From assembly GCA_964016885.1 (NCBI GenBank), contig OZ024743.1, forward strand, positions 55,924,001-55,988,000: 64,000 nucleotides of DNA, given 5' to 3'. Below, piece by piece: positions 45-60,190 of the stretch (position 1 is its first letter; the number at the start of each line of letters is the position of its first letter). The translations under genes and the position numbers were made by a program. The DNA is from Eledone cirrhosa. Its lineage: Eukaryota. The notes beneath the pieces are model-generated. The model did not search any database. It was not told the DNA's origin and was given only the letters and a program-made list of their open reading frames with translations.

Positions 45-410
<366 letters not shown>

Positions 411-5964: not shown

Positions 5965-6500
<536 letters not shown>

Positions 6501-7032
6501 CTGGTTTGGACAGCCAAACTAAACTAGGTAGTCAATCATAGTCTATGATGTACACTGCAGCTAAAATTTCCTCCTACTCATTTCTCTACATCCACCGCCA
6601 ATGTCTTTATATTATCTCCCTCTTCTTCCTTATTTGAAACTCCCCTCTCACCCTCTCATTCTCCCTCCCCTTTTCTCTCTTTCCTTCTTTCTCTCTACCT
6701 CACTCTCTCCCTTTCTCTTCTTCTCTATCTTTCTCTCTCACTCTCTGTCTTTCTCTCTCCCTCTCTCCATCTTATATCAATAGAATTACATTTTAAATCA
6801 TTTGCCAGGTCGTTTATGAATTCCATTCTGTCGGACATCTTCATATTATTGTATGATGGTATATTCACCAACCCCAACCTTTCTGCTATCTACCAGCTTC
6901 TGACTTCTTTCACCAGACCCTCTCCATTTCTTTCTCTTCGTTTTTCTTCTCGTTTTCGCTTATCCCCAACACCACAGCCACATATACATATACACATATA
7001 CATTCAAACACTCATATATATATATATATATA

Positions 7033-19932: not shown

Positions 19933-19940
<8 letters not shown>
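18168..19940 (+). mobile_element. Decayed PLE (YVDD-type RT, start of GIY-YIG) with inverted terminal tails (family H)
   Basis: GAAIGVSIAGDVAKLFM...YSRYVDD, LPVLDMELW, CVICKVNPQINCKTRNVVYSI. 18168-18382 is the inverse of 19810-19940, and a SINE piece sits in the left arm. Degenerate hammerhead at about 19674-19715. Confidence 0.85.
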
Positions 19941-19999
<59 letters not shown>

Positions 20000-20352
20000 A
20001 ACGAGTAGGAGCCCGACGGCTGAGCTCAAGCCGTTTCGAAGTGGGGTGGAAGGACTAGGATGGGATGGGGGGAGAAGGAAATATAGAGGAAACGATAAAA
20101 AATATATAAAAAAATCTTACGTCGACCTTTGTAAGCAGGTGTTACCCATTACAAAGTCGGTAAGTGGGGTGTTACAGCCCTTGTCTACCCCCCCCCCGGG
20201 TCATTATGGGGTTTGAGGGCGAGGTAAGTCCTACGCAATCTGTGTTTGCATGCAGTTACCAGTTCGTCTTTCTTGTTTAGGAGTTGGTCCGTCGAAAACA
20301 GCATTTGTAATGTTTCCTCCGAGCATAAGTTATACGGACGGCGTCCTCCCGT

Positions 20353-21618
20353 CTAAGAGTTGGCTCTGGACAGTAAGCTCCAAGTGAGATTATAGGTTAT
20401 ATTGTTATCTTTGAGGTCCCAGATGTGGCCCGAAAGTGTAGTGGCGTGAAGCCGGGCCGGGTTTCGGAAAGTATGTCTGTGTTGGTATAGCCGGGTCTTG
20501 AAGTCACAAGCGGATAATCCTATATAAGCTTTGTTGGAGGTGTCCGTCCTCACGTTGCACTGGTAGATCACATTACGATCTCTGCATCTGTTATCGAGGG
20601 GGAAAATGGTTCCAACAGGACAGTTACACCTCCTGGTCGGCTCTCCATTGCTATCTAGGTTATTTCTTCGATAGGAGTTGATTTTTTTGTTGTTAGAGGA
20701 GACGATGTTTTGTGCAAAGTTAGGTGTGGTGCTGTAGGAGAGTTTGATGGTATTTTTGTTGATTATGTTGTGGTAGCGGTGTTGTAGTGGGAAGTGTCTT
20801 TCGATGAGCCTAAAGAAGATTTTCCCGATAGGTGTTGTTACTCGGCGTTGTGGGGGGCGGGGATTGAACCATGTTACGTTGCGTGAGCGGCGGTGTCGCC
20901 TGCTGGTTCCGCTAATGGAAGCTGGATAGTAGAATATGTCCTCCCGGAAACCACTCCGCTTGAGGGCCTGGTTGTAATAAGGCGCATGTTCCTCGAATAT
21001 CTGCTCATTAGCGGACAAACGAGATATGCGGAGGGAGATGTTTTTAACCAGGTTATTGGTGATGTTTCTAGGATGGTTTGACCGGCGGTGGATGTAGTGC
21101 AGGTTGTCTTTTGGTTTCCTGTATGGGTAGTACAGATCATTATCGAGGTCAAGGGTAACGTCCAGGAAGTTTACTCGGGTTAGGTACGTTTGTAGGGTTA
21201 TTTTAAATCCCCAGTCGCGGAAGAAGCTGATTAATTGTTTACGGACCCGGTCTGTACTACTGGGGTTGTACCCTTTAAGGGTAAGGAGCCCATCATCACG
21301 GTACAATCCACCGCCGAATGCAGGAAACATATCGGTGAGTTTATCTAGGAATAATCCTATAAGATCTGTGACCTCAGCCGAATCCGTCGCGCCCATACTG
21401 ACGTCGAAGGGGGAGTCGGGAGCTCTCTGTATCCATTTGGAGTTGTCGAAAAGTAGGACTGTCTTCCTGGCGTGGAGGATGATATTTCTTTCCTGGTCGG
21501 TGATGGGCGCAAGTGTCTCGGCAAAGTCCAGGGCGGCCGTAAGGAGCGGTAAGGTAATTGAAGCATAGTAACTCTCTATGTCAAGCTGGATGAATTTTGT
21601 GTCTCGTTTGTCCTCCAT
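20353..21618 (-). CDS. PLE reverse transcriptase + GIY-YIG endonuclease (disrupted at both ends)
   Basis: DIESYYASI, FDVSMGATDSAEVTDLIG, YRDDG, FLDV, SNHP, CNCP, VIYQC...YIGLSACDFKTRLYQH; the C-terminal NLC...LNKKDELVTACKH lies beyond a stop/frameshift. Confidence 0.9.
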   Translation of the reverse strand: MEDKRDTKFIQLDIESYYASITLPLLTAALDFAETLAPITDQERNIILHARKTVLLFDNSKWIQRAPDSPFDVSMGATDSAEVTDLIGLFLDKLTDMFPAFGGGLYRDDGLLTLKGYNPSSTDRVRKQLISFFRDWGFKITLQTYLTRVNFLDVTLDLDNDLYYPYRKPKDNLHYIHRRSNHPRNITNNLVKNISLRISRLSANEQIFEEHAPYYNQALKRSGFREDIFYYPASISGTSRRHRRSRNVTWFNPRPPQRRVTTPIGKIFFRLIERHFPLQHRYHNIINKNTIKLSYSTTPNFAQNIVSSNNKKINSYRRNNLDSNGEPTRRCNCPVGTIFPLDNRCRDRNVIYQCNVRTDTSNKAYIGLSACDFKTRLYQHRHTFRNPARLHATTLSGHIWDLKDNNITYNLTWSLLSRANS

Positions 21619-22609
21619 ATTGCTGAACCATGAGATTACTTCCTGGGTGTTGACCCATAGGCTAAGTCTGGCGTTTTGCTTAACTTTTGGTATAACGCGA
21701 TCTAGGATTTTTTTTACTGATTCTCCCTATGTCGGACTTCGTTGGGTTTATAAGCCTGATAGATGGTTTACGGACGAAATTGGATTACTGGTACTTGCGT
21801 TCTCATCTGATTGCTGCCCCATTTCCGTGATTTCTAGATTTCTTAGTGGTATCTCTGCTTTAGGTTCTCGTATATCAGTATTTATTTATTTTTTGGAGGA
21901 GGGGCGGGGTTCTGAATTAATTTTTCGTATTAAATTTTTCATATATATCGTACGAGCATTTATGTAGTTTGTATTAGAATTTATGTATTGTAGCGGTACT
22001 CTTATATATCGTATTAGTATTTATTTTCGGGATTCTGAATTAATATTTCGTATTAGTTTCGGGACTCTGAATTATTATTTCGTATTAGTTTTTTTTTTTT
22101 TTTTTTTTTCTAAAGTACTTTGGCCCCCTACTTGTTGACCTGTCATTGTAAGATAGATTTGGCCGATTACTACTAACTCATAAAATTCTTTCACTACAAT
22201 CTCGTATTTAGTATTCCGTCCCACCTTTTAAACTTTTCTATAGTTTAGCAGTACCAATGAGAGATTTGATGATTATGGTAGGGGAATAGTAACCAGAAAT
22301 TGTGTTTTTTTATATTTTTTAACATTCTTATTTTTCTCTATATTTACTCCATATAGATTTACTTATTGTTTCGACTTCCTCCTCCTCTCCCCATCTCTAG
22401 TATACTTCTCTTGACCTATTATCCTTAGGATTTTGCTGTAGTTGTCACTCTCAACGCACGACTGGGTTTCCTCCACTCCCTCTCCCTCTTTCTTCTACTG
22501 GCAAGTTCAGCTACCCCTCCCTTCCACAAAATGCCATGATAGAATTATGTGTCTCAACAACAAACTTTTGACCAATCCTTGTGACAATCACTTTTACCAT
22601 ATATGGAAT

Positions 22610-30716: not shown

Positions 30717-30843
<127 letters not shown>

Positions 30844-31358
30844 GTACGTGATGTATACAGGATAAAACATTTGACAGTCATTCGCTATTAATTATTTAAG
30901 GTTATGACCTCCGCCACACAACCCAAGTCTCACCAAAAACCAGGGGAAATCATCAGCAACGCTGTTTTAAACTTGTTAGTGGTTTTGAAGGCTGCATATA
31001 CACTTAGTTTCCGCTGAGAATAAGCTAGAATCTCATAGATTCCGCTGAGAATAAGCTAAAATCTCATAGATTCCTTGCCTATGTATATGAGCTGATGAGG
31101 CTCATTTGCATACGGGACGGTAGCCGGTCAGGCTTAAAATAAGATAGAAATTAGTCTAGGTGCTACACGATTGCGTTGCCCACATATATATATATATATA
31201 TATATACGTATTGTAGTATATATATATATACAGATGCGAGAAAAACCACAAACATCCCATCTCAATTCTACTTTTGAAAATCATAAGAACTGTGAAACCG
31301 GTAAAGGAAACAAATAAATATTCTTAAAAAGACTCCAGTTGCATTTTCGATTTCTTTT

Positions 31359-36199: not shown

Positions 36200-37348
36200 T
36201 TAGCTGTATACTTTATGGAATGTTCTGTGGAATTTATGCAAGCAGAGAGAAAACAAATCAGTGCGTCTATTTATTATAGAATCTAAATTAGATATAATGG
36301 TAAATTTTTCACTTAAACAGAGATTGCATGTCTTGGATAGAGAACTGTTCAAGTATAGAGAAGCAGAAGAAACCTTTTTCCAAGAGATGTTATAGTTAAT
36401 ATTTTTGTCTTTCAAGGACCATATGAGTTCTGAGAGTGCCGTGTTGGTTCTTTTAAGTTGGTATTTAAAAGACGAATGATGATTATAAAGACGAGCTTTA
36501 AAGGAGGTGGAAGTGGAGCCAAAATAGGTGAAGGAATTGGTGTCAGTTATAACTTTACATTCGTAGATTAATTTTTTTTCAAGACAATGGTTGTTGAGAG
36601 GACATTTATTTTTAACAGGGCAATTGCAATTGCTATTAGAGAGATTAGCAGAGTTATTAACAAGTGACCTATTGTTATCTATAGAAGGAATTGGATTGGA
36701 GAAGTTATTTACGATAGGAATACTAGTTTCTTGATTTAGAATGGGATTAAGAACATTTAGCGAAGTTGCGTTTGACGTTGTATTTGGGTTTGCAGAAATT
36801 AGCCTAGAGTTTACAATGACGTCGGGAGTACTATTACTATTATTATGATATTCAATGTTGGAAGGAAGAGATTTAGTATTTAGTATTTTATTGTTGTGTT
36901 TAGAGATAATGTTGGAGATGTTGGAGGAGGTCGAATAGGAAAATTTTATAGTGTGTTTGTTAAATATTTTACTATAGATATGTGAGGGAGGGAAGCATTT
37001 ATTTAAGGCACTAAAGAATAATTTAGGAATATTATTATTAATAGAGATGGAGAAAGGAGCATTATACCAGATTATGTTTTTGTATCTAGGTCTTTTATTA
37101 AAGTTATTGGAATGATCATGATTAATTATTCTACTGTAAGATCTTCTAGAATTTGTTTCTTTACTATATTTGATTTTATCAGGATAACCGGCTTTAGAAA
37201 GCGCGTTATTATAGTAATTGGCGTTAGCATCAAAGATGTTTTTATTAGAAGATAGGTTAGATATTCTTTTTCCAATATTACTAACTATAACATTCTTAAT
37301 ATTAGTGGGGTGGTTAGATTTAAAATTAACATAATTTAGGTTCTCATT
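36200..37348 (-). CDS. PLE RT thumb + linker + GIY-YIG, uninterrupted ~383-codon frame lacking its start
   Basis: Manual translation: NENLNYVNFKSNHP...KRISNLSS...YYNNALSKAGY...IIWYNAPFS...IKFSYS...CNCPVKNKCPL...LIYECKV...YFGSTSTSFKARLYNH...CNLC...CLH. Confidence 0.85.
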   Translation of the reverse strand, partial: NENLNYVNFKSNHPTNIKNVIVSNIGKRISNLSSNKNIFDANANYYNNALSKAGYPDKIKYSKETNSRRSYSRIINHDHSNNFNKRPRYKNIIWYNAPFSISINNNIPKLFFSALNKCFPPSHIYSKIFNKHTIKFSYSTSSNISNIISKHNNKILNTKSLPSNIEYHNNSNSTPDVIVNSRLISANPNTTSNATSLNVLNPILNQETSIPIVNNFSNPIPSIDNNRSLVNNSANLSNSNCNCPVKNKCPLNNHCLEKKLIYECKVITDTNSFTYFGSTSTSFKARLYNHHSSFKYQLKRTNTALSELIWSLKDKNINYNISWKKVSSASLYLNSSLSKTCNLCLSEKFTIISNLDSIINRRTDLFSLCLHKFHRTFHKVYS

Positions 37349-45299: not shown

Positions 45300-47020
45300 C
45301 GTAAAACATTTTTTCTTCCATATATCTGTTACCGGTACCATGACATAGTTCCTCCTCCAACTTATCCAGTCTAGCATTTCCCTCTGAATTTCCCCTGCCC
45401 CCAACAAGGAGTCATCTTCAAGAATATCCTTCAACGCTGTGGTTGGGCTCCCAATTCGTCTGCACGTATCAGGTTTCCAGAAAAGAACTCTGCCAGTAGA
45501 GTTAATGTCCGTTTAATACGAGCTTCCTGCACTTTATACAGTCAGAAAGGCGAGGGTGTGAGCCATAGAGGGATTTGTTTGCTACGTGTGTTCTCTGGGA
45601 TATATAGTGGGCCTTTCTCAACATCTGGGTGAAAGTGCCATTAATTCTGTTTGGTAGTGTTTTTATCAGTGTCCATGACTCGCATCCGTAGAGGAGAATA
45701 GACATAACCGTTGCTTTGAATAGCTTCATTTTTCTGGTTTTCTTTATCGGAGACACCCAGGCCTTTTTTAGGGAGTTGAGAGTCCCCTCCTCATGTCTTG
45801 CCTATTCTGGTGTCCACATCATGCTCTGTGTCATAAAACTGCCAAGGTACAAGACGTCATCCAGTTCCTCAATCTTCGAACATGTCTAGCGCATGCATTT
45901 GTTTATTTGACGTTTATGAATTTTGTTTTGCCAGCATTCAAGACGGGTCCAATGGACTCCGCTGCAGTCTCCATTCTGTGAGGCACGTCCTCGGCTTCTT
46001 TGCGGGTGTTTTCCAGGAGAGCTGTGTCATCTGCGTAAACCACTTCAGGTAGAACTTCCGTCAGATTTGGGGTGCTTTGTCGACTTTTCAGTATTATTCC
46101 ATCTGACGGTTCAATGGCATTATGCAGTGCATAATCATGGCATATCACGAAATGGAAAGGGGTCAAAGGATATCTCTGGAGAACTCCGGTCCCAATGGAT
46201 AATAGGTCTGAGTTTCCCTAGGATTTCATCACTTTAATTACATTCACAATCTGATGGGATACCTCATAACCGAGAAGGATTTTGAGGATCTTGTTTCGGT
46301 CGATCGAATCAAAAGCCTTCTTGAAATCTATTAATAAAATTGTGGCCTCCTTCTTGTGATTCTGTACCTCCTCAACAATCCTTCTTAGATCCAAGATGTG
46401 TAAGGCAGTCGAACAAAATGGCTGAAATACATTTTGCCTCTAATGCAGTCTGCTGTCTATATTTGATCTGATCCTATTCAGGATCATCCTATTGTAAGTC
46501 TTTGCTGTAATTGGCATAAGACTGATGCCTCTATAGTTAATGTGGATAGTAAGGGCACCTTTTGGGGTACTGGAATTATTGCCGATATTCTCCATGCCTG
46601 AGTTTCGATGCAGAAGTCTCTTAGAAACTTGCGAGCTTTGGGTAGTTTCTATAGGTCTACATTTAGGCCATCAAACCCAGGAGATTTGCCTGGTTTCATT
46701 GCGTTTAGTGCATTGTTCACCTCTTCTATGGAGAATTCAGCAATGTTTACCTCTGGATGGACTTCAAATACTGGATCAATCGGTGTGTCAGACTCCAATG
46801 ATTGTCAGCTGATAGGTGTTTGTGGAAATGCTTCCTCCATGTCACAAGGCAGTCTTCTCCTTGGATATATATCACAGTCTTCCTCATCTTCTTACCAAAA
46901 AGTTCTTTTATCAGTGTCCAAGCTTCTCTCGGTGTGTTGTTTCTATTCTCAAAATCAGCCAGATTCTTACAACCTCCAGATGATTGAAAATATAGCGTTG
47001 AATTATCTGTGTTAGCGCTA
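45300..47020 (-). pseudogene. Decayed RTE LINE RT region
   Basis: NYRGISL, DFKKAFDSI, VVYADDTALL, KLFKATVMSILLYGCESWTL; several frameshifts. Confidence 0.9.
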
Positions 47021-47023
47021 TTG

Positions 47024-47070
<47 letters not shown>

Positions 47071-47092
47071 ATGATATATATATATATATATA

Positions 47093-49099
47093 TTGGAATA
47101 AATGCTCTGAAATAGCGATATATATATGAATATAGACATAGAATATTCGAAAATATTCTGTATGTTTATAATAAACATTTTGAAGACCTAATCGCTATAG
47201 AATAGAATACGTCACGTATTACAATTAGATTCTCGATAAAAGCAAGGGAAGTAATCTACGCGTTTCATTCTTGTTAGAATTCATCAGGACTACATATCCA
47301 GTGCTTTTATCGAGAATGACACAGCTAGAGACTTATAGAATACTTAGCTGTGTACAGGAACTGGTTTGAAAGAGCGGTTGCCGGTCCGGCAGAAATTAGA
47401 AATTGGAATAAATGCTCTGAAATAGCGATATATATATGAATATAGACATAGAATATTCGAAAATATTCTGTATGTTTATAATAAACATTTTGAAGACCTA
47501 ATCGCTATAGAATAGAATACGTCACGTATTACAATTAGATTCTCGATAAAAGCAAGGGAAGTAATCTACGCGTTTCATTCTTGTTAGAATTCATCAGGAC
47601 TACATATCCAGTGCTTTTATCGAGAATGACACAGCTAGAGACTTATAGAATACTTAGCTGTGTACAGGAACTGGTTTGAAAGAGCGGTTGCCGGTCCGGC
47701 AGAAATTAGAAATTGGAATAAATGCTCTGAAATAGCGATATATATATGAATATAGACATAGAATATTCGAAAATATTCTGTATGTTTATAATAAACATTT
47801 TGAAGACCTAATCGCTATAGAATAGAATACGTCACGTATTACAATTAGATTCTAGATAAAAGCAAGGGAAGTAATCTACGCGTTTCATTCTTGTTAGAAT
47901 TCATCAGGACTACATATCCAGTGCTTTTATCGAGAATGACACAGCTAGAAACTTATAGAATACTTAGCTGTGTACAGGAACTGGTTTGAAAGAGCGGTTG
48001 CCGGTCCGGCAGAAATTAGAAATTGGAATAAATGCTCTGAAATAGCGATATATATATGAATATAGACATAGAATATTCGAAAATATTCTGTATGTTTATA
48101 ATAAACATTTTGAAGACCTAATCGCTATAGAATAGAATACGTCACGTATTACAATTAGATTCTCGATAAAAGCAAGGGAAGTAATCTACGCGTTTCATTC
48201 TTGTTAGAATTCATCAGGACTACATATCCAGTGCTTTTATCGAGAATGACACAGCTAGAGACTTATAGAATACTTAGCTGTGTACAGGAACTGGTTTGAA
48301 AGAGCGGTTGCCGGTCCGGCAGAAATTAGAAATTGGAATAAATGCTCTGAAATAGCGATATATATATGAATATAGACATAGAATATTCGAAAATATTCTG
48401 TATGTTTATAATAAACATTTTGAAGACCTAATCGCTATAGAATAGAATACGTCACGTATTACAATTAGATTCTCGATAAAAGCAAGGGAAGTAATCTACG
48501 CGTTTCATTCTTGTTAGAATTCATCAGGACTACATATCCAGTGCTTTTATCGAGAATGACACAGCTAGAGACTTATAGAATACTTAGCTGTGTACAGGAA
48601 CTGGTTTGAAAGAGCGGTTGCCGGTCCGGCAGAAATTAGAAATTGGAATAAATGCTCTGAAATAGCGATATATATATGAATATAGACATAGAATATTCGA
48701 AAATATTCTGTATGTTTATAATAAACATTTTGAAGACCTAATCGCTATAGAATAGAATACGTCACGTATTACAATTAGATTCTCGATAAAAGCAAGGGAA
48801 GTAATCTACGCGTTTCATTCTTGTTAGAATTCATCAGGACTACATATCCAGTGCTTTTATCGAGAATGACACAGCTAGAGACTTATAGAATACTTAGCTG
48901 TGTACAGGAACTGGTTTGAAAGAGCGGTTGCCGGTCCGGCAGAAATTAGAAATTGGAATAAATGCTCTGAAATAGCGATATATATATGAATATAGACATA
49001 GAATATTCGAAAATATTCTGTATGTTTATAATAAACATTTTGAAGACCTAATCGCTATAGAATAGAATAGAATACGTCACGTATTACAATTAGATTCTC
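47093..49099 (-). repeat. Tandem array of a 310-bp hammerhead-containing unit (~6.5 copies, 6 ribozymes), left arm
   Basis: AATGCTCTGA recurs at 47101, 47411, 47721, 48031, 48341, 48651 and 48961. Confidence 0.97.
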
Positions 49100-52000
49100 T
49101 AATTTCTGCCGGACCGGCAACCGCTCTTTCAAACCAGTTCCTGTACACAGCTAAGTATTCTATAAGTCTCTAGCTGTGTCATTCTCGATAAAAGCACTGG
49201 ATATGTAGTCCTGATGAATTCTAACAAGAATGAAACGCGTAGATTACTTCCCTTGCTTTTATCGAGAATCTAATTGTAATACGTGACGTATTCTATTCTA
49301 TAGCGATTAGGTCTTCAAAATGTTTATTATAAACATACAGAATATTTTCGAATATTCTATGTCTATATTCATATATATATCGCTATTTCAGAGCATTTAT
49401 TCCAATTTCTAATTTCTGCCGGACCGGCAACCGCTCTTTCAAACCAGTTCCTGTACACAGCTAAGTATTCTATAAGTCTCTAGCTGTGTCATTCTCGATA
49501 AAAGCACTGGATATGTAGTCCTGATGAATTCTAACAAGAATGAAACGCGTAGATTACTTCCCTTGCTTTTATCGAGAATCTAATTGTAATACGTGACGTA
49601 TTCTATTCTATAGCGATTAGGTCTTCAAAATGTTTATTATAAACATACAGAATATTTTCGAATATTCTATGTCTATATTCATATATATATCGCTATTTCA
49701 GAGCATTTATTCCAATTTCTAATTTCTGCCGGACCGGCAACCGCTCTTTCAAACCAGTTCCTGTACACAGCTAAGTATTCTATAAGTCTCTAGCTGTGTC
49801 ATTCTCGATAAAAGCACTGGATATGTAGTCCTGATGAATTCTAACAAGAATGAAACGCGTAGATTACTTCCCTTGCTTTTATCGAGAATCTAATTGTAAT
49901 ACGTGACGTATTCTATTCTATAGCGATTAGGTCTTCAAAATGTTTATTATAAACATACAGAATATTTTCGAATATTCTATGTCTATATTCATATATATAT
50001 CGCTATTTCAGAGCATTTATTCCAATTTCTAATTTCTGCCGGACCGGCAACCGCTCTTTCAAACCAGTTCCTGTACACAGCTAAGTATTCTATAAGTCTC
50101 TAGCTGTGTCATTCTCGATAAAAGCACTGGATATGTAGTCCTGATGAATTCTAACAAGAATGAAACGCGTAGATTACTTCCCTTGCTTTTATCGAGAATC
50201 TAATTGTAATACGTGACGTATTCTATTCTATAGCGATTAGGTCTTCAAAATGTTTATTATAAACATACAGAATATTTTCGAATATTCTATGTCTATATTC
50301 ATATATATATCGCTATTTCAGAGCATTTATTCCAATTTCTAATTTCTGCCGGACCGGCAACCGCTCTTTCAAACCAGTTCCTGTACACAGCTAAGTATTC
50401 TATAAGTCTCTAGCTGTGTCATTCTCGATAAAAGCACTGGATATGTAGTCCTGATGAATTCTAACAAGAATGAAACGCGTAGATTACTTCCCTTGCTTTT
50501 ATCGAGAATCTAATTGTAATACGTGACGTATTCTATTCTATAGCGATTAGGTCTTCAAAATGTTTATTATAAACATACAGAATATTTTCGAATATTCTAT
50601 GTCTATATTCATATATATATCGCTATTTCAGAGCATTTATTCCAATTTCTAATTTCTGCCGGACCGGCAACCGCTCTTTCAAACCAGTTCCTGTACACAG
50701 CTAAGTATTCTATAAGTCTCTAGCTGTGTCATTCTCGATAAAAGCACTGGATATGTAGTCCTGATGAATTCTAACAAGAATGAAACGCGTAGATTACTTC
50801 CCTTGCTTTTATCGAGAATCTAATTGTAATACGTGACGTATTCTATTCTATAGCGATTAGGTCTTCAAAATGTTTATTATAAACATACAGAATATTTTCG
50901 AATATTCTATGTCTATATTCATATATATATCGCTATTTCAGAGCATTTATTCCAATTTCTAATTTCTGCCGGACCGGCAACCGCTCTTTCAAACCAGTTC
51001 CTGTACACAGCTAAGTATTCTATAAGTCTCTAGCTGTGTCATTCTCGATAAAAGCACTGGATATGTAGTCCTGATGAATTCTAACAAGAATGAAACGCGT
51101 AGATTACTTCCCTTGCTTTTATCGAGAATCTAATTGTAATACGTGACGTATTCTATTCTATAGCGATTAGGTCTTCAAAATGTTTATTATAAACATACAG
51201 AATATTTTCGAATATTCTATGTCTATATTCATATATATATCGCTATTTCAGAGCATTTATTCCAATTTCTAATTTCTGCCGGACCGGCAACCGCTCTTTC
51301 AAACCAGTTCCTGTACACAGCTAAGTATTCTATAAGTCTCTAGCTGTGTCATTCTCGATAAAAGCACTGGATATGTAGTCCTGATGAATTCTAACAAGAA
51401 TGAAACGCGTAGATTACTTCCCTTGCTTTTATCGAGAATCTAATTGTAATACGTGACGTATTCTATTCTATAGCGATTAGGTCTTCAAAATGTTTATTAT
51501 AAACATACAGAATATTTTCGAATATTCTATGTCTATATTCATATATATATCGCTATTTCAGAGCATTTATTCCAATTTCTAATTTCTGCCGGACCGGCAA
51601 CCGCTCTTTCAAACCAGTTCCTGTACACAGCTAAGTATTCTATAAGTCTCTAGCTGTGTCATTCTCGATAAAAGCACTGGATATGTAGTCCTGATGAATT
51701 CTAACAAGAATGAAACGCGTAGATTACTTCCCTTGCTTTTATCGAGAATCTAATTGTAATACGTGACGTATTCTATTCTATAGCGATTAGGTCTTCAAAA
51801 TGTTTATTATAAACATACAGAATATTTTCGAATATTCTATGTCTATATTCATATATATATCGCTATTTCAGAGCATTTATTCCAATTTCTAATTTCTGCC
51901 GGACCGGCAACCGCTCTTTCAAACCAGTTCCTGTACACAGCTAAGTATTCTATAAGTCTCTAGCTGTGTCATTCTCGATAAAAGCACTGGATATGTAGTC

Positions 52001-52470
52001 CTGATGAATTCTAACAAGAATGAAACGCGTAGATTACTTCCCTTGCTTTTATCGAGAATCTAATTGTAATACGTGACGTATTCTATTCTATAGCGATTAG
52101 GTCTTCAAAATGTTTATTATAAACATACAGAATATTTTCGAATATTCTATGTCTATATTCATATATATATCGCTATTTCAGAGCATTTATTCCAATTTCT
52201 AATTTCTGCCGGACCGGCAACCGCTCTTTCAAACCAGTTCCTGTACACAGCTAAGTATTCTATAAGTCTCTAGCTGTGTCATTCTCGATAAAAGCACTGG
52301 ATATGTAGTCCTGATGAATTCTAACAAGAATGAAACGCGTAGATTACTTCCCTTGCTTTTATCGAGAATCTAATTGTAATACGTGACGTATTCTATTCTA
52401 TAGCGATTAGGTCTTCAAAATGTTTATTATAAACATACAGAATATTTTCGAATATTCTATGTCTATATTC
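49098..52470 (+). repeat. Tandem array of the same 310-bp unit (~10.9 copies, 11 ribozymes), right arm, inverted relative to the left
   Basis: AATTTCTGCC recurs every 310 bp from 49101 to 52201. Confidence 0.97.
49205..49247 (+). ncRNA. Type I hammerhead ribozyme of the 310-bp unit (repeats every 310 bp; first minus copy 47251-47293)
   Basis: GTAGTC-CTGATGA-ATTCT-AACA-AGAAT-GAAA-CGCG-TA-GATTAC; all core nucleotides intact; predicted cleavage after 49241. Confidence 0.92.
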
Positions 52471-52496
<26 letters not shown>

Positions 52497-52501
<5 letters not shown>

Positions 52502-52804
52502 ATGATATTAAATAAATGGAAACTATATTTATAAAACCATATTTATTTTATTATATATATTTCAAGGGTACCAAAACACTTTGATGCGCTTTCTTCAGAT
52601 AAAATACAAGTTTGTTTTATAAATAGAGACATACCCAGGAAAATCATACCTTATCAGTTGGATATTCTCTGGATAGTGGAAATGTATAATGGATTTTTCA
52701 AACTTATGGATGAATATGCAAATGAATATGTAAATAATTGAAAAACAACCGTTTATTTAAACGACTATGGAGAGAGAGAAGAGAGAAGAGAAGAAGGACA
52801 AAAT

Positions 52805-55243: not shown

Positions 55244-55423
55244 TAAATAATTCAGGCTATTTGTTTACAAACAAACCGAGCATTATAATAAATGTTCGGT
55301 AAACTCATACATACATATATATATATATGTGCATGTATGTATGTGTATGCATACTACTATACGTCCGTATACATATGTATACATATATATGTATACATAT
55401 ATGTATGTACGTATACATACTTG

Positions 55424-57495
<2,072 letters not shown>

Positions 57496-57528: not shown

Positions 57529-60190
57529 TTGGTGAGGGAAATAATACCTGTCTCCCCGCGAGTGTTGAGGGTGACCTTCAATGGAAACCTAAGACTGACT
57601 GTCATCTCAGCCTATAGTCCAACTGAGGGAGACACTGATGTGAGTGCGGAGGAGTTCCATTATGAGGTGTGTAGAGCTGTCAACACCACATAAGCTCACA
57701 ACATCCTGCTTGTTCTGGGGGACTTCAATGCACATCTGAGTAAGGAGAGCAGTGAAGATCCTTGCTGGTACTTCAATAAAAACACCAACCGAAATGGAAG
57801 ACTACTGAGAGACACCCCCCTACAGGAGAATTTGATAGCAACCAACCTAAGGTTTAGGAAGAATCCGGGGAAGATGTGGACATACATCTCAGATATTCAC
57901 CTGTCCAAGTCCCAGATTGAATTCATTCTGGTGAGGAAAAAGTGGCGGAATAGTGTTCTGAACACAGAACCATACAACTATTTCAGTACACTGGGCAGTA
58001 ACCACCGGCTTGTTATGAGTGAGGTCCGGCTGAGCTTAAGAAAGAGCAAGGCTCAGCCCCAGAGAGCAATCTATGACTGGAGAACTTTCAACGAAGATGA
58101 TAATCTACAGGAGAGGTTCACAGTAGAAATGAGGAACAGGTTCAGTGCTCTGTGTGGAGAGGCAGAGGAGGGAGAGATTGGAGGGACTGAGGAGTGTGTG
58201 ACGAGGAGGTACGGATACTTCACCATTGCAGTGGCGGAAGCAAGTGAGACCCTGGTGTCGAATAGAAAGAACAAGAGGAAGCACGTCAGTTCTGCAGACC
58301 CAAAGGTGTGTGCAGCCAGAGAACCCCTGAAAGTTGCCAAGGACCAATTCTAAAATGATCGTACGGAGGAGAGGAAGGAGAATATGGAGGTGATGAGGGA
58401 AGAACTCTGTATCGCTTACACCGAAGCCAGAGAGGAGGAACTGTTCGAGAAGATCAGAAGTGTGGAGAGAGCGGTTAACAAGTCTGGATGTAAAGAGAGC
58501 TGGATGATCATCAACGAGATCACAGGGAGGAAAAGGTGTTCGAGTCAGATCCAAGGAACAGGCCCTGAGTATAGGAAGAGGAAATGGCTGGACCATTTTA
58601 GGACCCTACTAGGAGAGCCGCCCTCCCAAGCCCAGAACACTGGAGAGATCAGGTGGCTGCTTGAGAGACTGGATATTGAGACAGGACCCTTCACCAGAAA
58701 GGAGCTTCAGAGAGCCAAGAAGAAGATCAAGGAGGGCAAGGCTCATGGGATAAGATGGGGTGGCATCAGATGTGTGATTTTGATGGTATCATCCAGGAGT
58801 TCTGTAACCAGGCACTGGCGAAAGGAGTTGCCTCAAATCAGTGAAGGATTAGTAACAGTCTCAGTGCCAAAGAAGGGAGATCTCTCTAACACCAACAACT
58901 ACAGGGGGATCTCACTGACGTCACTTGTGGCAAAGACCTCAACAGGATGATTCTTAACAGGATCCAGCCCGAGATGGAGAAGAAGCTCAGGGACAACTAG
59001 AACAGCTTCAGAGAGGGAAGATCAACCACCAGTCACATCCTGATGCTGAGGAGGATATTAGAGAGAGCTAGAGCAAAGTGCCTTCCTGCAGTTATGGTTT
59101 TCATTGACTTTAGGAGGGCCTTTGATTCTGTGGACCGTCACTTCCTGATGAAGATCTTACAGGCTTATGGAATCCCCAAGAAGATAGTGGACCTGATATC
59201 ACTGCTCTACACCAACACCAAAGCCCAGGTCATTACACCTGATGGGATGACAGAGTTCTTTGAGATACTGGCTGGTGTACTCCAGGGAGATACATTGGCT
59301 CCCTAACTTTTTATCATCGTAGTGGACTATTGTATGCGCCTTGCACTGGAGAAACACCAGGATTCTGGCTTTACTGTAGCACCGGCTCAGAGCAGGAGAG
59401 TTAAGGCGAAAAAGGTATCGGATGCTTAATTTGCCGACGACATAGTTTTGGTGACAAATACAGTGAAGGAGGCAGAGGATTTGATGCAGGAGGTTGAGAC
59501 TGTGTCGATGAGTGCGGGGCTGAGAATGAATGAGATTAAGACGAAGTATCTGGCAGAGAATATTAAGAAGCCAGTGAAGATTACTAATATAGGCGGGAAG
59601 CCGCTGGAATTGGTTGAGGACTTCCTGTATTTGGGAGCAAAGATTGGGAATACGGAAGATGATGTCGTCGAGAGGAAGAGCAAAGCCTGGGCGGCGTGCC
59701 ACAGCTTGAGATCGGAGTGGAAGTCGGGCCCTCGTAAAAACCTGAAGATCCATCTCTTCGTTGGTGTAGTGGAGTGTGTGGTGCTGTACGGGTATGAGAC
59801 TTGGACACTGACCAAGAAACTCACTCAGATGGTGGATGGGTGCTACACGAGAATGCTGAGGATGGCTCTGAACATTAATCAGTATACACTGAGGATGAAG
59901 AACTCAGAGCTGTACGGGAGCCTCCCAAAAGTCAGCTCGAAAGTGACAGAGGAGACTAAGGTTAGCTGGACATGCTCACCGACATCCAAAGTTGACACTG
60001 CACTCTGTGCTCCTGTGGGAGCCCCTGCATGGAAACACTGGAAGAGGAGGCCCGAGGTTAACATATGTTGATTCCCTAAGAACAGACACTGATCTCTTGG
60101 AGACACAGGACATGGCAGCGATAATGAGGGACGGAGACCGCTGGAAAGAACTCGTCCATGGATCTCGGGAATTTTACCCGCCCTAGACAT
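57529..60190 (+). pseudogene. RTE LINE (APE endonuclease + RT), 5'-truncated and disrupted
   Basis: ISAYSPT, VLGDFNAH, SNHRLV, NYRGISL, FIDFRRAFDSV, GVLQGDTLAP, FADD, VVLYGYETWTL. Confidence 0.92.

What the first reader, a model, noticed from the sequence alone, without database searches (positions are those of the whole stretch)
47093..52470. Bidirectional 17-ribozyme array of a 310-bp non-coding unit: candidate fresh retrozyme (circRNA) insertion
Seen: about 6.5 units on the minus strand and about 10.9 on the plus strand are joined 5'-to-5' near 49098. Units are essentially identical; I see only two substitutions (about 47854 and 47950) and one AATAG duplication (about 49066). The ORF track lists nothing inside the array, and each unit has an intact type I hammerhead. 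Established: metazoan non-LTR retrozymes are short hammerhead-bearing tandem repeats that yield monomeric and circular RNAs and are thought to be mobilised by PLEs (work of de la Pena and colleagues). Inference: read-through transcripts self-cleave to 310-nt monomers, which circularise and are copied by rolling-circle reverse transcription. That would give long multimers primed from both ends of a (TA)n target. Whether this family has been described I cannot tell.
Basis: partly seen in the sequence, partly recalled or inferred. Interest (0 to 1): 0.9.

Follow-up and report, generated by a model that had tools for sequence, protein, structure and literature searches.

The report
Two-armed Penelope-built hammerhead retrozyme array
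This is one young copy of a 310-base non-coding repeat with a predicted self-cutting RNA motif, present about 16,000 times in this animal genome, mostly as back-to-back arrays laid out like the genome's Penelope-type jumping genes, so such an enzyme likely wrote it into DNA from both sides of a break, probably by running round one small RNA circle.

Summary
In detail: 6.5 units on minus and 10.9 on plus, joined head-to-head, 17 type I hammerheads, plus an unnoticed target duplication. It is one insertion of a dispersed family (16,374 unit matches, 1,314 matches to one end). Of 40 insertions sampled by that end, 38 have an inverted second arm. One arm ends at unit position 165, the other near 130-139, both in (TA)n. 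Two young intact Penelope-like (PLE) families here show the same long-end/short-end layout. Both arms share one haplotype in 44 of 45 insertions, although 25 haplotypes occur. Locus-fixed changes favour A>G; scattered ones do not. Best reading (0.6): a PLE enzyme extends both nicked target strands and copies one probably circular monomer repeatedly. Not shown: self-cleavage, any RNA, circularity, the partner PLE. Some long arms show later local duplication. It is a non-LTR retrozyme; the layout is known for PLEs, and I did not find it described for retrozymes in the papers read. This scan has already noted this family, with the same reading, on other DNA of this genome.

The parts
47092..49099 (-). 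Long-ended arm: 6.5 units, 3' end at unit position 165 (numbering from the first base after the predicted GUA cut), 5' end at position 23; 6 hammerheads, 2 substitutions, one 5-nt duplication
49098..52480 (+). Short-ended arm: 10.9 identical units, 5' end at unit position 167, 3' end in the unit's (AT)4 tract (position 130-139); 11 hammerheads
49098..49099 (.). Head-to-head junction with 2-nt overlap (TC)
49181..49269 (+). First plus-strand type I hammerhead with extended helix I: core CUGAUGA at 49211, helix II 4 bp with loop UAACAA, helix III 2 bp around palindromic ACGCGU, predicted cut after GUA at 49241
47040..47077 (+). Left copy of the target-site duplication, (TA)n-CACAATGATAT; its exact length is blurred by the TA run
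47078..47091 (+). 14 nt of (AT)n between the duplicated target and the long end, absent from the right-hand copy; likely added during insertion
   Evidence: the cause is inference
52471..52508 (+). Right copy of the target-site duplication; its first 10 nt are shared with the unit's own (AT) tract
52498..52610 (-). Target context: decayed hammerhead-bearing 3' end resembling that of another PLE family, into whose (TA)n tail the array inserted

Best explanation
The array is one insertion of a young, dispersed, non-coding hammerhead repeat (a non-LTR retrozyme) with the end layout of Penelope-like elements, likely made by a PLE reverse transcriptase-endonuclease that extended both nicked target strands while copying one probably circular 310-nt RNA many times. 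Steps: (1, inferred) read-through transcripts fold as double hammerheads and cut after GUA; monomers are ligated to circles, in which the 2-bp helix III would limit re-cutting. (2, inferred from published PLE biochemistry) a PLE protein acting in trans nicks both strands of an AT-rich site in a staggered way, 12-13 nt apart where it can be read. (3, pattern shown, enzyme inferred) one DNA end starts cDNA at unit position about 165 and the other at about 127-139, with 2-3 nt or (TA) pairing. (4, inferred) each synthesis runs round the same template for a random number of turns. (5, pattern shown) the two cDNA ends join through short microhomology or a short templated patch, giving the head-to-head junction. 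(6, shown for a few long arms) units are later duplicated locally.
For: Family size: 16,374 exact matches to a 28-nt unit motif; 1,314 long ends and 735 short ends running into TA. Layout: 38 of 40 insertions picked only by the long end have an inverted second arm, ending at 138-139 by BLAST; 1 is single-armed, 1 unresolved. Of 18 clusters listed without regard to ends, 14 are two-armed, 3 single-armed, 1 unresolved, none tail-to-tail. Coding PLEs here do the same: family B has one end at 31 and one at 114 in 5 of 5 two-armed loci; family A one at 6407 and one at 6544 in 2 of 2. Published: PLEs often carry an inverted 5'-truncated copy and a 30-40-bp tail at one end only (PMC8557442, passages); a purified PLE nicks and extends both strands, is predicted to be a dimer and starts at two internal sites (PMC11167929). 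One template: both arms share the haplotype in 44 of 45 loci, with 25 haplotypes in the set and a chance match of 0.07-0.105. Independent arms: long-ended arm longer in 26, shorter in 19, rho 0.24, p 0.11. No run-off at the cut: 2 of 90 arm 5' ends lie within 6 nt of it, 3.5 expected. Burst origin: 34 of 39 non-fixed substitutions in arms of 4 or more units are singletons, against 0.37 expected under a neutral coalescent. RNA stage: locus-fixed changes are A>G 8, T>C 1 (of 22; p 0.009), non-fixed 4 and 8 (of 52); Fisher p 0.004. Ribozyme conserved: 0 of 24 fixed variants hit the 12 invariant core positions, while the free N7 position varies in 10 loci; across three related families 94% of helix cells pair, with C3-G8 changed to U3-A8. 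The double-hammerhead fold of a dimer is within 0.3 kcal/mol of the minimum. Junction overlap of 2 nt or more in 19 of 29 ungapped junctions, null 18%. Target duplications of 12 and 13 bp at two non-TA sites (L034; L253; read by eye).
Against: No cleavage, RNA or circle was observed. No partner was found: neither intact PLE family, nor the 3' regions held of six others, shows similarity to the unit, and the end spacings of the two intact families (83 and 137 nt) differ from about 35 nt. In vitro the anole PLE used unprocessed RNA and did not need hammerhead cleavage (PMC11167929), which favours linear templates. L067 is mosaic: 276G in 7 of 7 units of one arm and in only the 2 junction-side units of 6 in the other. 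The 45-unit arm L080/L220 carries repeated variants in 9, 9, 5 and 2 units, and L052, L056 and L057 have some too; L080/L220 and L056 were not in the singleton count. L074 has one mirrored variant. Singletons may be sequencing errors. The A>G excess could come from selection for G-U pairs instead of editing. A whole-unit covariation test between two families was null (18 of 46 changed pairs kept, null 17.5). The commonest haplotype (287T, 33 of 45 loci) breaks the base pair at the foot of helix II.
Confidence: 0.6

Rival explanations
1. Same PLE enzyme and same two start sites, but the template is a long uncleaved linear read-through transcript of a parent array, primed twice as in L1 twin priming (recalled); the hammerhead is dispensable for the copying step.
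For: The purified anole PLE inserted unprocessed RNA and did not need its hammerhead (PMC11167929). Eight of nine frog retrozyme dimers did not cleave in vitro (preprint 10.64898/2026.07.22.740005). The L067 mosaic fits one heterogeneous linear RNA. Very long source arms exist (45 units).
Against: Long-ended arms do not stop next to the second start site (4 of 45 5' ends at 125-155, 4.5 expected; hand count). Many haplotypes are private to one locus yet present in all its units (19 of 25 seen once), which needs a single-unit bottleneck. The A>G excess is in fixed, not scattered, changes. The core stays invariant.
Confidence: 0.2
2. Insertions begin short (about one unit per arm) in the PLE layout, and the tandem arrays then grow in place by unequal crossover or slippage, as suggested in the Discussion of Li et al. 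2026.
For: Repeated variants with block periodicity in L080/L220, L056, L052 and L057. Local growth would also leave both arms with one haplotype.
Against: 34 of 39 non-fixed substitutions are singletons against 0.37 expected. Older related families have shorter, not longer, arrays in the copies seen (these were top-scoring hits, not a random sample). Coding PLEs here form tandems of 3.5- and 6.6-kb units in the same layout.
Confidence: 0.1
3. The inverted arm is a fold-back (self-primed) DNA copy of the first cDNA, as proposed for palindromic PLE junctions (Arkhipova et al. 2013).
For: A mirrored variant in the near-palindromic L074, and short templated patches at several junctions. The junction-side units of L067 match the other arm.
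Against: Either arm can be the longer one (26 against 19), and both outer ends are fixed. Near-symmetric junctions are not enriched (4 of 42, 2.8 expected).
Confidence: 0.08
4. The inversion is a long-read fold-back or assembly artefact.
For: No listed public record bridges this junction (lists were cut, and the tool states that a hole proves nothing).
Against: Unequal arms, different flanks, a direct target duplication, and the same fixed pair of ends in 38 of 40 loci and in coding PLEs.
Confidence: 0.01

Closest known systems
Metazoan non-LTR retrozymes (Cervera and de la Pena 2020, PMC7229834, parts 2-4 of 6 read; Li, Clavereau and Pollet 2026, 10.64898/2026.07.22.740005, parts 1-3 of 5 read)
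   Same: Tandem units in the 150-450 bp range, a type I hammerhead in each, no ORF, GC under 50%, target duplication longer than 4 bp, co-occurrence with PLEs; weak palindromic helix III as in axolotl HHR_Amex1; a U-U mismatch at the foot of helix II in the commonest haplotype, as in HHR_Amex2.
   Different: The two opposed multimeric arms, the fixed long and short ends and the one-haplotype-per-insertion pattern are not described in the text I read (the preprint has 0 occurrences of 'head-to-head' or 'orientation'; supplements of both papers not seen). No sequence similarity to a PLE terminal repeat was found here, unlike 24 of 57 Xenopus families. Expression and circularity are shown there and untested here.
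Endonuclease-bearing Penelope-like elements (PMC8557442 and PMC3846280, passages; PMC11167929, parts 1-2 of 4; PMC4209133, passages)
   Same: Inverted 5'-truncated copy, 30-40-nt tail at one end only, (TA)n bias, tandems, two internal start sites, target duplications of about 8-13 bp, hammerheads predicted to act as dimers. Circular templates were already proposed for PLE tandems (PMC4209133).
   Different: No ORF; 310-nt unit; up to 45 units per arm; it must be moved in trans, and the partner is unidentified.
L1 twin priming
   Same: Head-to-head junction with microhomology inside one target duplication.
   Different: Here the inversion is the rule, the second start site is fixed, there is no poly(A), and the first arm does not stop at the second priming site.

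Membership tests
Metazoan non-LTR retrozyme | Short tandem repeats of 150-450 bp | tested here: met
   310 bp
Metazoan non-LTR retrozyme | Type I hammerhead motif in every unit | tested here: met
   17 cores; fold; covariation across three families; Rfam match below gathering score
Metazoan non-LTR retrozyme | Non-coding, low GC | tested here: met
   No frame of 100 aa inside; GC 33-35%; no tRNA
Metazoan non-LTR retrozyme | Dispersed mobile copies, with target duplications longer than 4 bp when visible | tested here: met
   duplication in the window, 12 bp in L034, 13 bp in L253; most sites unreadable in (TA)n
Metazoan non-LTR retrozyme | Self-cleavage | not testable with these tools
   Predicted for dimers only
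Metazoan non-LTR retrozyme | Expressed as linear and circular monomer RNA | not testable with these tools
   No RNA holder listed; contigs cannot tell a circle from a tandem
Non-autonomous PLE-mobilised element | Inverted 5'-truncated copy at the 5' end | tested here: met
   38 of 40 and 14 of 18
Non-autonomous PLE-mobilised element | 30-40-nt tail at one end only | tested here: met
   Ends at about 165 and 127-139; 131C lost at the short end in 30 of 42 loci, placing most short ends at or before 130
Non-autonomous PLE-mobilised element | Microsatellite target bias | tested here: met
   41 of 45 and 42 of 45 ends; 40 of the loci were chosen by a pattern that includes TA at the long end
Non-autonomous PLE-mobilised element | Intact PLE families of like age in the genome | tested here: met
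   830-aa family, 150 of 150 scored copies 98-100% alike; 784-aa family
Non-autonomous PLE-mobilised element | Sequence shared with the terminal repeat of an identified autonomous partner | tested here: inconclusive
   None found in 1.13 Mb of held loci covering 3' regions of about nine PLE families, some incomplete; other families were not sampled
Autonomous PLE | RT plus GIY-YIG ORF | tested here: not met

The most novel reading that the evidence does not exclude
Twin rolling-circle retrotransposition: a PLE dimer holds one ribozyme-made RNA circle, each subunit starts at its own site (long or short) from one side of the break, and both run round the circle. The PLE 'tail at one end only', the inverted copy and the tandems would then be one reaction, recorded more than a thousand times by a 310-nt parasite whose lineage kept both start sites through three waves of spread. 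The extra (AT)7 in this window would be telomerase-like repeat addition, so these elements would lengthen the (TA)n tracts they are found in.
Probability: 0.4. Interest if true: 0.8.

Novelty: new variant of a known kind. Interest (0 to 1): 0.6.

Why it matters
How PLEs, the retroelements whose reverse transcriptases are closest to telomerase, make their tandem and inverted insertions is named as open in the papers read. Retrozyme mobilisation by PLEs rests there on co-occurrence and terminal-repeat similarity. This family offers more than a thousand very young insertion products of a 310-nt substrate, together with intact PLE proteins in the same genome. It yields sharp predictions (two start sites, both strands, multi-turn cDNA, one template per insertion) that an existing in vitro assay can test. 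It also bears on how ribozyme satellites such as those of newts arise: as ready-made multimers rather than by slow local amplification.

Tried and rejected
A DNA search of the genome with the whole unit returned nothing, because common words are skipped; patterns were used instead. No RNA holder listed. Contigs of six runs of unknown kind hold the unit; none listed bridges 49098. An empty-site allele was sought with a left-flank pattern; only the window matched. The partner search failed: a Pfam scan missed the PLE fragments, and blastn, nhmmer and tblastn found no PLE attached to or resembling the unit or its two older relatives. Whole-unit covariation between two families was no better than null, probably through helix register shifts; only the hammerhead helices passed, on 8 rows from 3 lineages and with a structure I named myself. 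One search held one row in the wrong orientation and was discarded. A shuffled-pair test for target duplications gave 3 of 45 loci at 4 or more informative letters (null 0.15%) but missed L034, so that case and L253 are read by eye. Three of 45 loci failed anchoring in the junction script and are left out of its counts. Loci with fixed indels were left out (non-fixed part). The sigma-70 scan is irrelevant to an animal; no promoter was identified. I first took the PLE at 55-57 kb for a Naiad; its endonuclease is C-terminal, so I dropped that label.
Full report
Observation. The array is as described. A minus arm of 6.5 units (47092-49099) and a plus arm of 10.9 units (49098-52480) of a 310-bp unit are joined at their 5' ends with a 2-nt overlap. 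The plus arm is mismatch-free; the minus arm has two substitutions and a 5-nt duplication. There are 17 hammerhead cores. I number the unit from the first base after the predicted GUA cut. The minus arm ends at position 165; the plus arm ends in the unit's (AT)4 tract at 130-139. The string (TA)n-CACAATGATAT lies in direct orientation at both ends, and 14 further nt of (AT)n separate the left copy from the arm. The right flank is a decayed hammerhead-bearing end resembling that of another PLE family.

The ribozyme. It is type I, with a 6-bp helix I extended by a 16-bp stem, a 4-bp helix II and a 2-bp helix III around the palindrome ACGCGU. PMC4209133 (passages) and PMC7229834 describe such motifs as working in dimers. 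For a dimer transcript the double-hammerhead fold scores -112.4 kcal/mol, the unconstrained minimum -112.7, and two single hammerheads with the A15.1-U16.1 pair enforced -94.3. Among 24 distinct locus-fixed variants none hits the 12 invariant core positions; the free N7 position varies in 10 of 45 loci, and the three helix I substitutions keep pairing. However, the commonest variant (287T, 33 loci) breaks the foot of helix II. Two older related families exist: one with copies about 90% alike and 66% identical to this unit, one with copies 70-79% alike. Across 8 rows from the three families 93.8% of helix cells pair, and C3-G8 becomes U3-A8. That is three lineages only, and a whole-unit test was null. 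Cleavage was not tested.

The family. The genome has 3.0 Gb. A 43-nt hammerhead string matches 2,528 times, a 28-nt motif 16,374 times, the long end followed by TA 1,314 times and the short end 735 times. I fetched the first 40 long ends on contig C1 not already held. Of these, 38 have an inverted second arm that ends at the short site, 1 is single-armed and 1 unresolved. Among the 18 clusters in the first 100 motif hits, chosen without regard to ends, 14 are two-armed, 3 single-armed, 1 unresolved and none tail-to-tail. In loci carrying 131C the short end has lost that letter in 30 of 42, so most short ends lie at or before 130, about 35 nt from the long end. Two insertions outside TA runs show 12- and 13-bp target duplications, read by eye (L034, L253).

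The PLE footprint. Craig et al. 2021 (PMC8557442, passages) list for PLEs partial tandems, an inverted 5'-truncated copy at the 5' end, a 30-40-bp tail at one end only, and (TA)n bias. Frangieh et al. 2024 (PMC11167929, parts 1-2 of 4) show a purified PLE nicking and extending both strands and starting at two internal sites that define the tail, and predict a dimer. This genome holds at least two young intact families with a C-terminal endonuclease, of 830 and 784 aa. Their two-armed copies have one long and one short end in 2 of 2 and 5 of 5 loci, all running into (TA)n. The retrozyme therefore carries the layout that coding PLEs of this genome carry. Its partner was not found: there is no similarity to these or to the held 3' regions of other families, and the two intact families' end spacings are 137 and 83 nt.

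One template, copied many times. In the 45 two-armed loci analysed there are 25 fixed haplotypes. Both arms share the haplotype in 44; a chance match would be 0.07, or 0.105 among the 36 loci with both arms over 340 bp. Arm lengths are weakly or not correlated, and either arm can be longer (26 against 19), which excludes a simple fold-back copy from one fixed side. Arm 5' ends are spread evenly (p 0.47), with 2 of 90 near the cut site, so synthesis does not run off at a cleaved 5' end. Junctions show overlap of 2 nt or more in 19 of 29 ungapped cases against 18% by chance; 13 others of the 42 scored have gaps, some of which arise only because a nearby variant stopped the extension. Non-fixed substitutions are singletons in 34 of 39 cases against 0.37 expected, as for units made in one burst, though errors would look the same. 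Fixed changes are A>G 8 against T>C 1; non-fixed changes are 4 against 8. This fits A-to-I editing (recalled) of a single template that was then copied throughout, not units drawn from many RNAs; selection for G-U pairs could give part of it. A covalent circle cannot be told by these data from a cut monomer whose ends are held together by helix I and jumped by the enzyme.

Against. L067 is mosaic between and within arms, and L074 has a mirrored variant. The longest arms show repeated variants (L080/L220 at 45 units, L052, L056, L057), so local duplication or multimeric templates act at least there. The anole PLE did not need hammerhead cleavage in vitro, and 8 of 9 frog retrozyme dimers did not cleave. 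No RNA run was listed, no listed record bridges this junction, and no empty allele is in the assembly.

Comparison and novelty. By unit size, ribozyme, lack of coding, dispersal and target duplication this is a non-LTR retrozyme; the RNA-level features are untested. PLE mobilisation and circular templates were proposed before (PMC7229834 Discussion; PMC4209133; preprint 10.64898/2026.07.22.740005), and the inverted layout is known for PLEs (also PMC3846280, passages, which proposes self-priming). I found no description of two-armed retrozyme arrays with fixed asymmetric ends, or of one haplotype per insertion, in the text read or in the listings of searches. The library lacks most subscription papers, and I could not see the supplements of PMC7229834 or of the preprint. 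My reading was recorded before I consulted earlier notes. Those notes show that other agents of this scan reached the same reading for this family elsewhere in this genome, which is not independent evidence.

Verdict. A real, very young insertion; a new variant of a known kind, valuable because it makes the proposed PLE and circle mechanism testable. Interest 0.6.

Noticed in passing
window 96-287: A different small hammerhead element inserted head-to-head between two (TA)n runs (cores at +228 and -223), with more of it beyond 408.
   Followed up: partly
window 30815-31021 (-): Decayed copy of the oldest related retrozyme family, whose members have a U3-A8 core and the same two end sites.
   Followed up: yes
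window 19937-21726 (-): 5'-truncated copy of the 784-aa PLE family, ending in (TA)n at its short end; the family has a U3-A8 hammerhead with a long helix II that a standard pattern misses.
   Followed up: partly
window 55404-57390 (+): Decayed PLE with C-terminal endonuclease and a hammerhead at 57255; 127 scored relatives at 78-94% (self excluded), several with an inverted terminal repeat.
   Followed up: partly
window 36320-37348 (-): Fragments of a further PLE family.
   Followed up: no
L201-L204, L216-L217: The 830-aa PLE family forms tandems of 6.6-kb units (five frames in a row on C6) and showed no hammerhead with the patterns used.
   Followed up: partly
L205:57-1514: Another tandem hammerhead family with a period of about 466 bp.
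   Followed up: no
L211, L213, L214-L215: Both arms of coding PLE insertions also share locus-private variants, seen by eye.
   Followed up: no
runs X4, X5, X6 on window 48962-49262: Three runs under three other organism labels each hold the unit as one 340-nt record (310 + 30) at depth 18-34; kind of run unknown, and tandem DNA gives the same shape.
   Followed up: no
L057 junction: 272 nt of unrelated sequence lies between the two arms.
   Followed up: no
window 45903-47015 (-) and 57694-60071 (+): Decayed LINE-type reverse transcriptase fragments; RVT_1 matches at 45903-46217 and 59001-59303.
   Followed up: no
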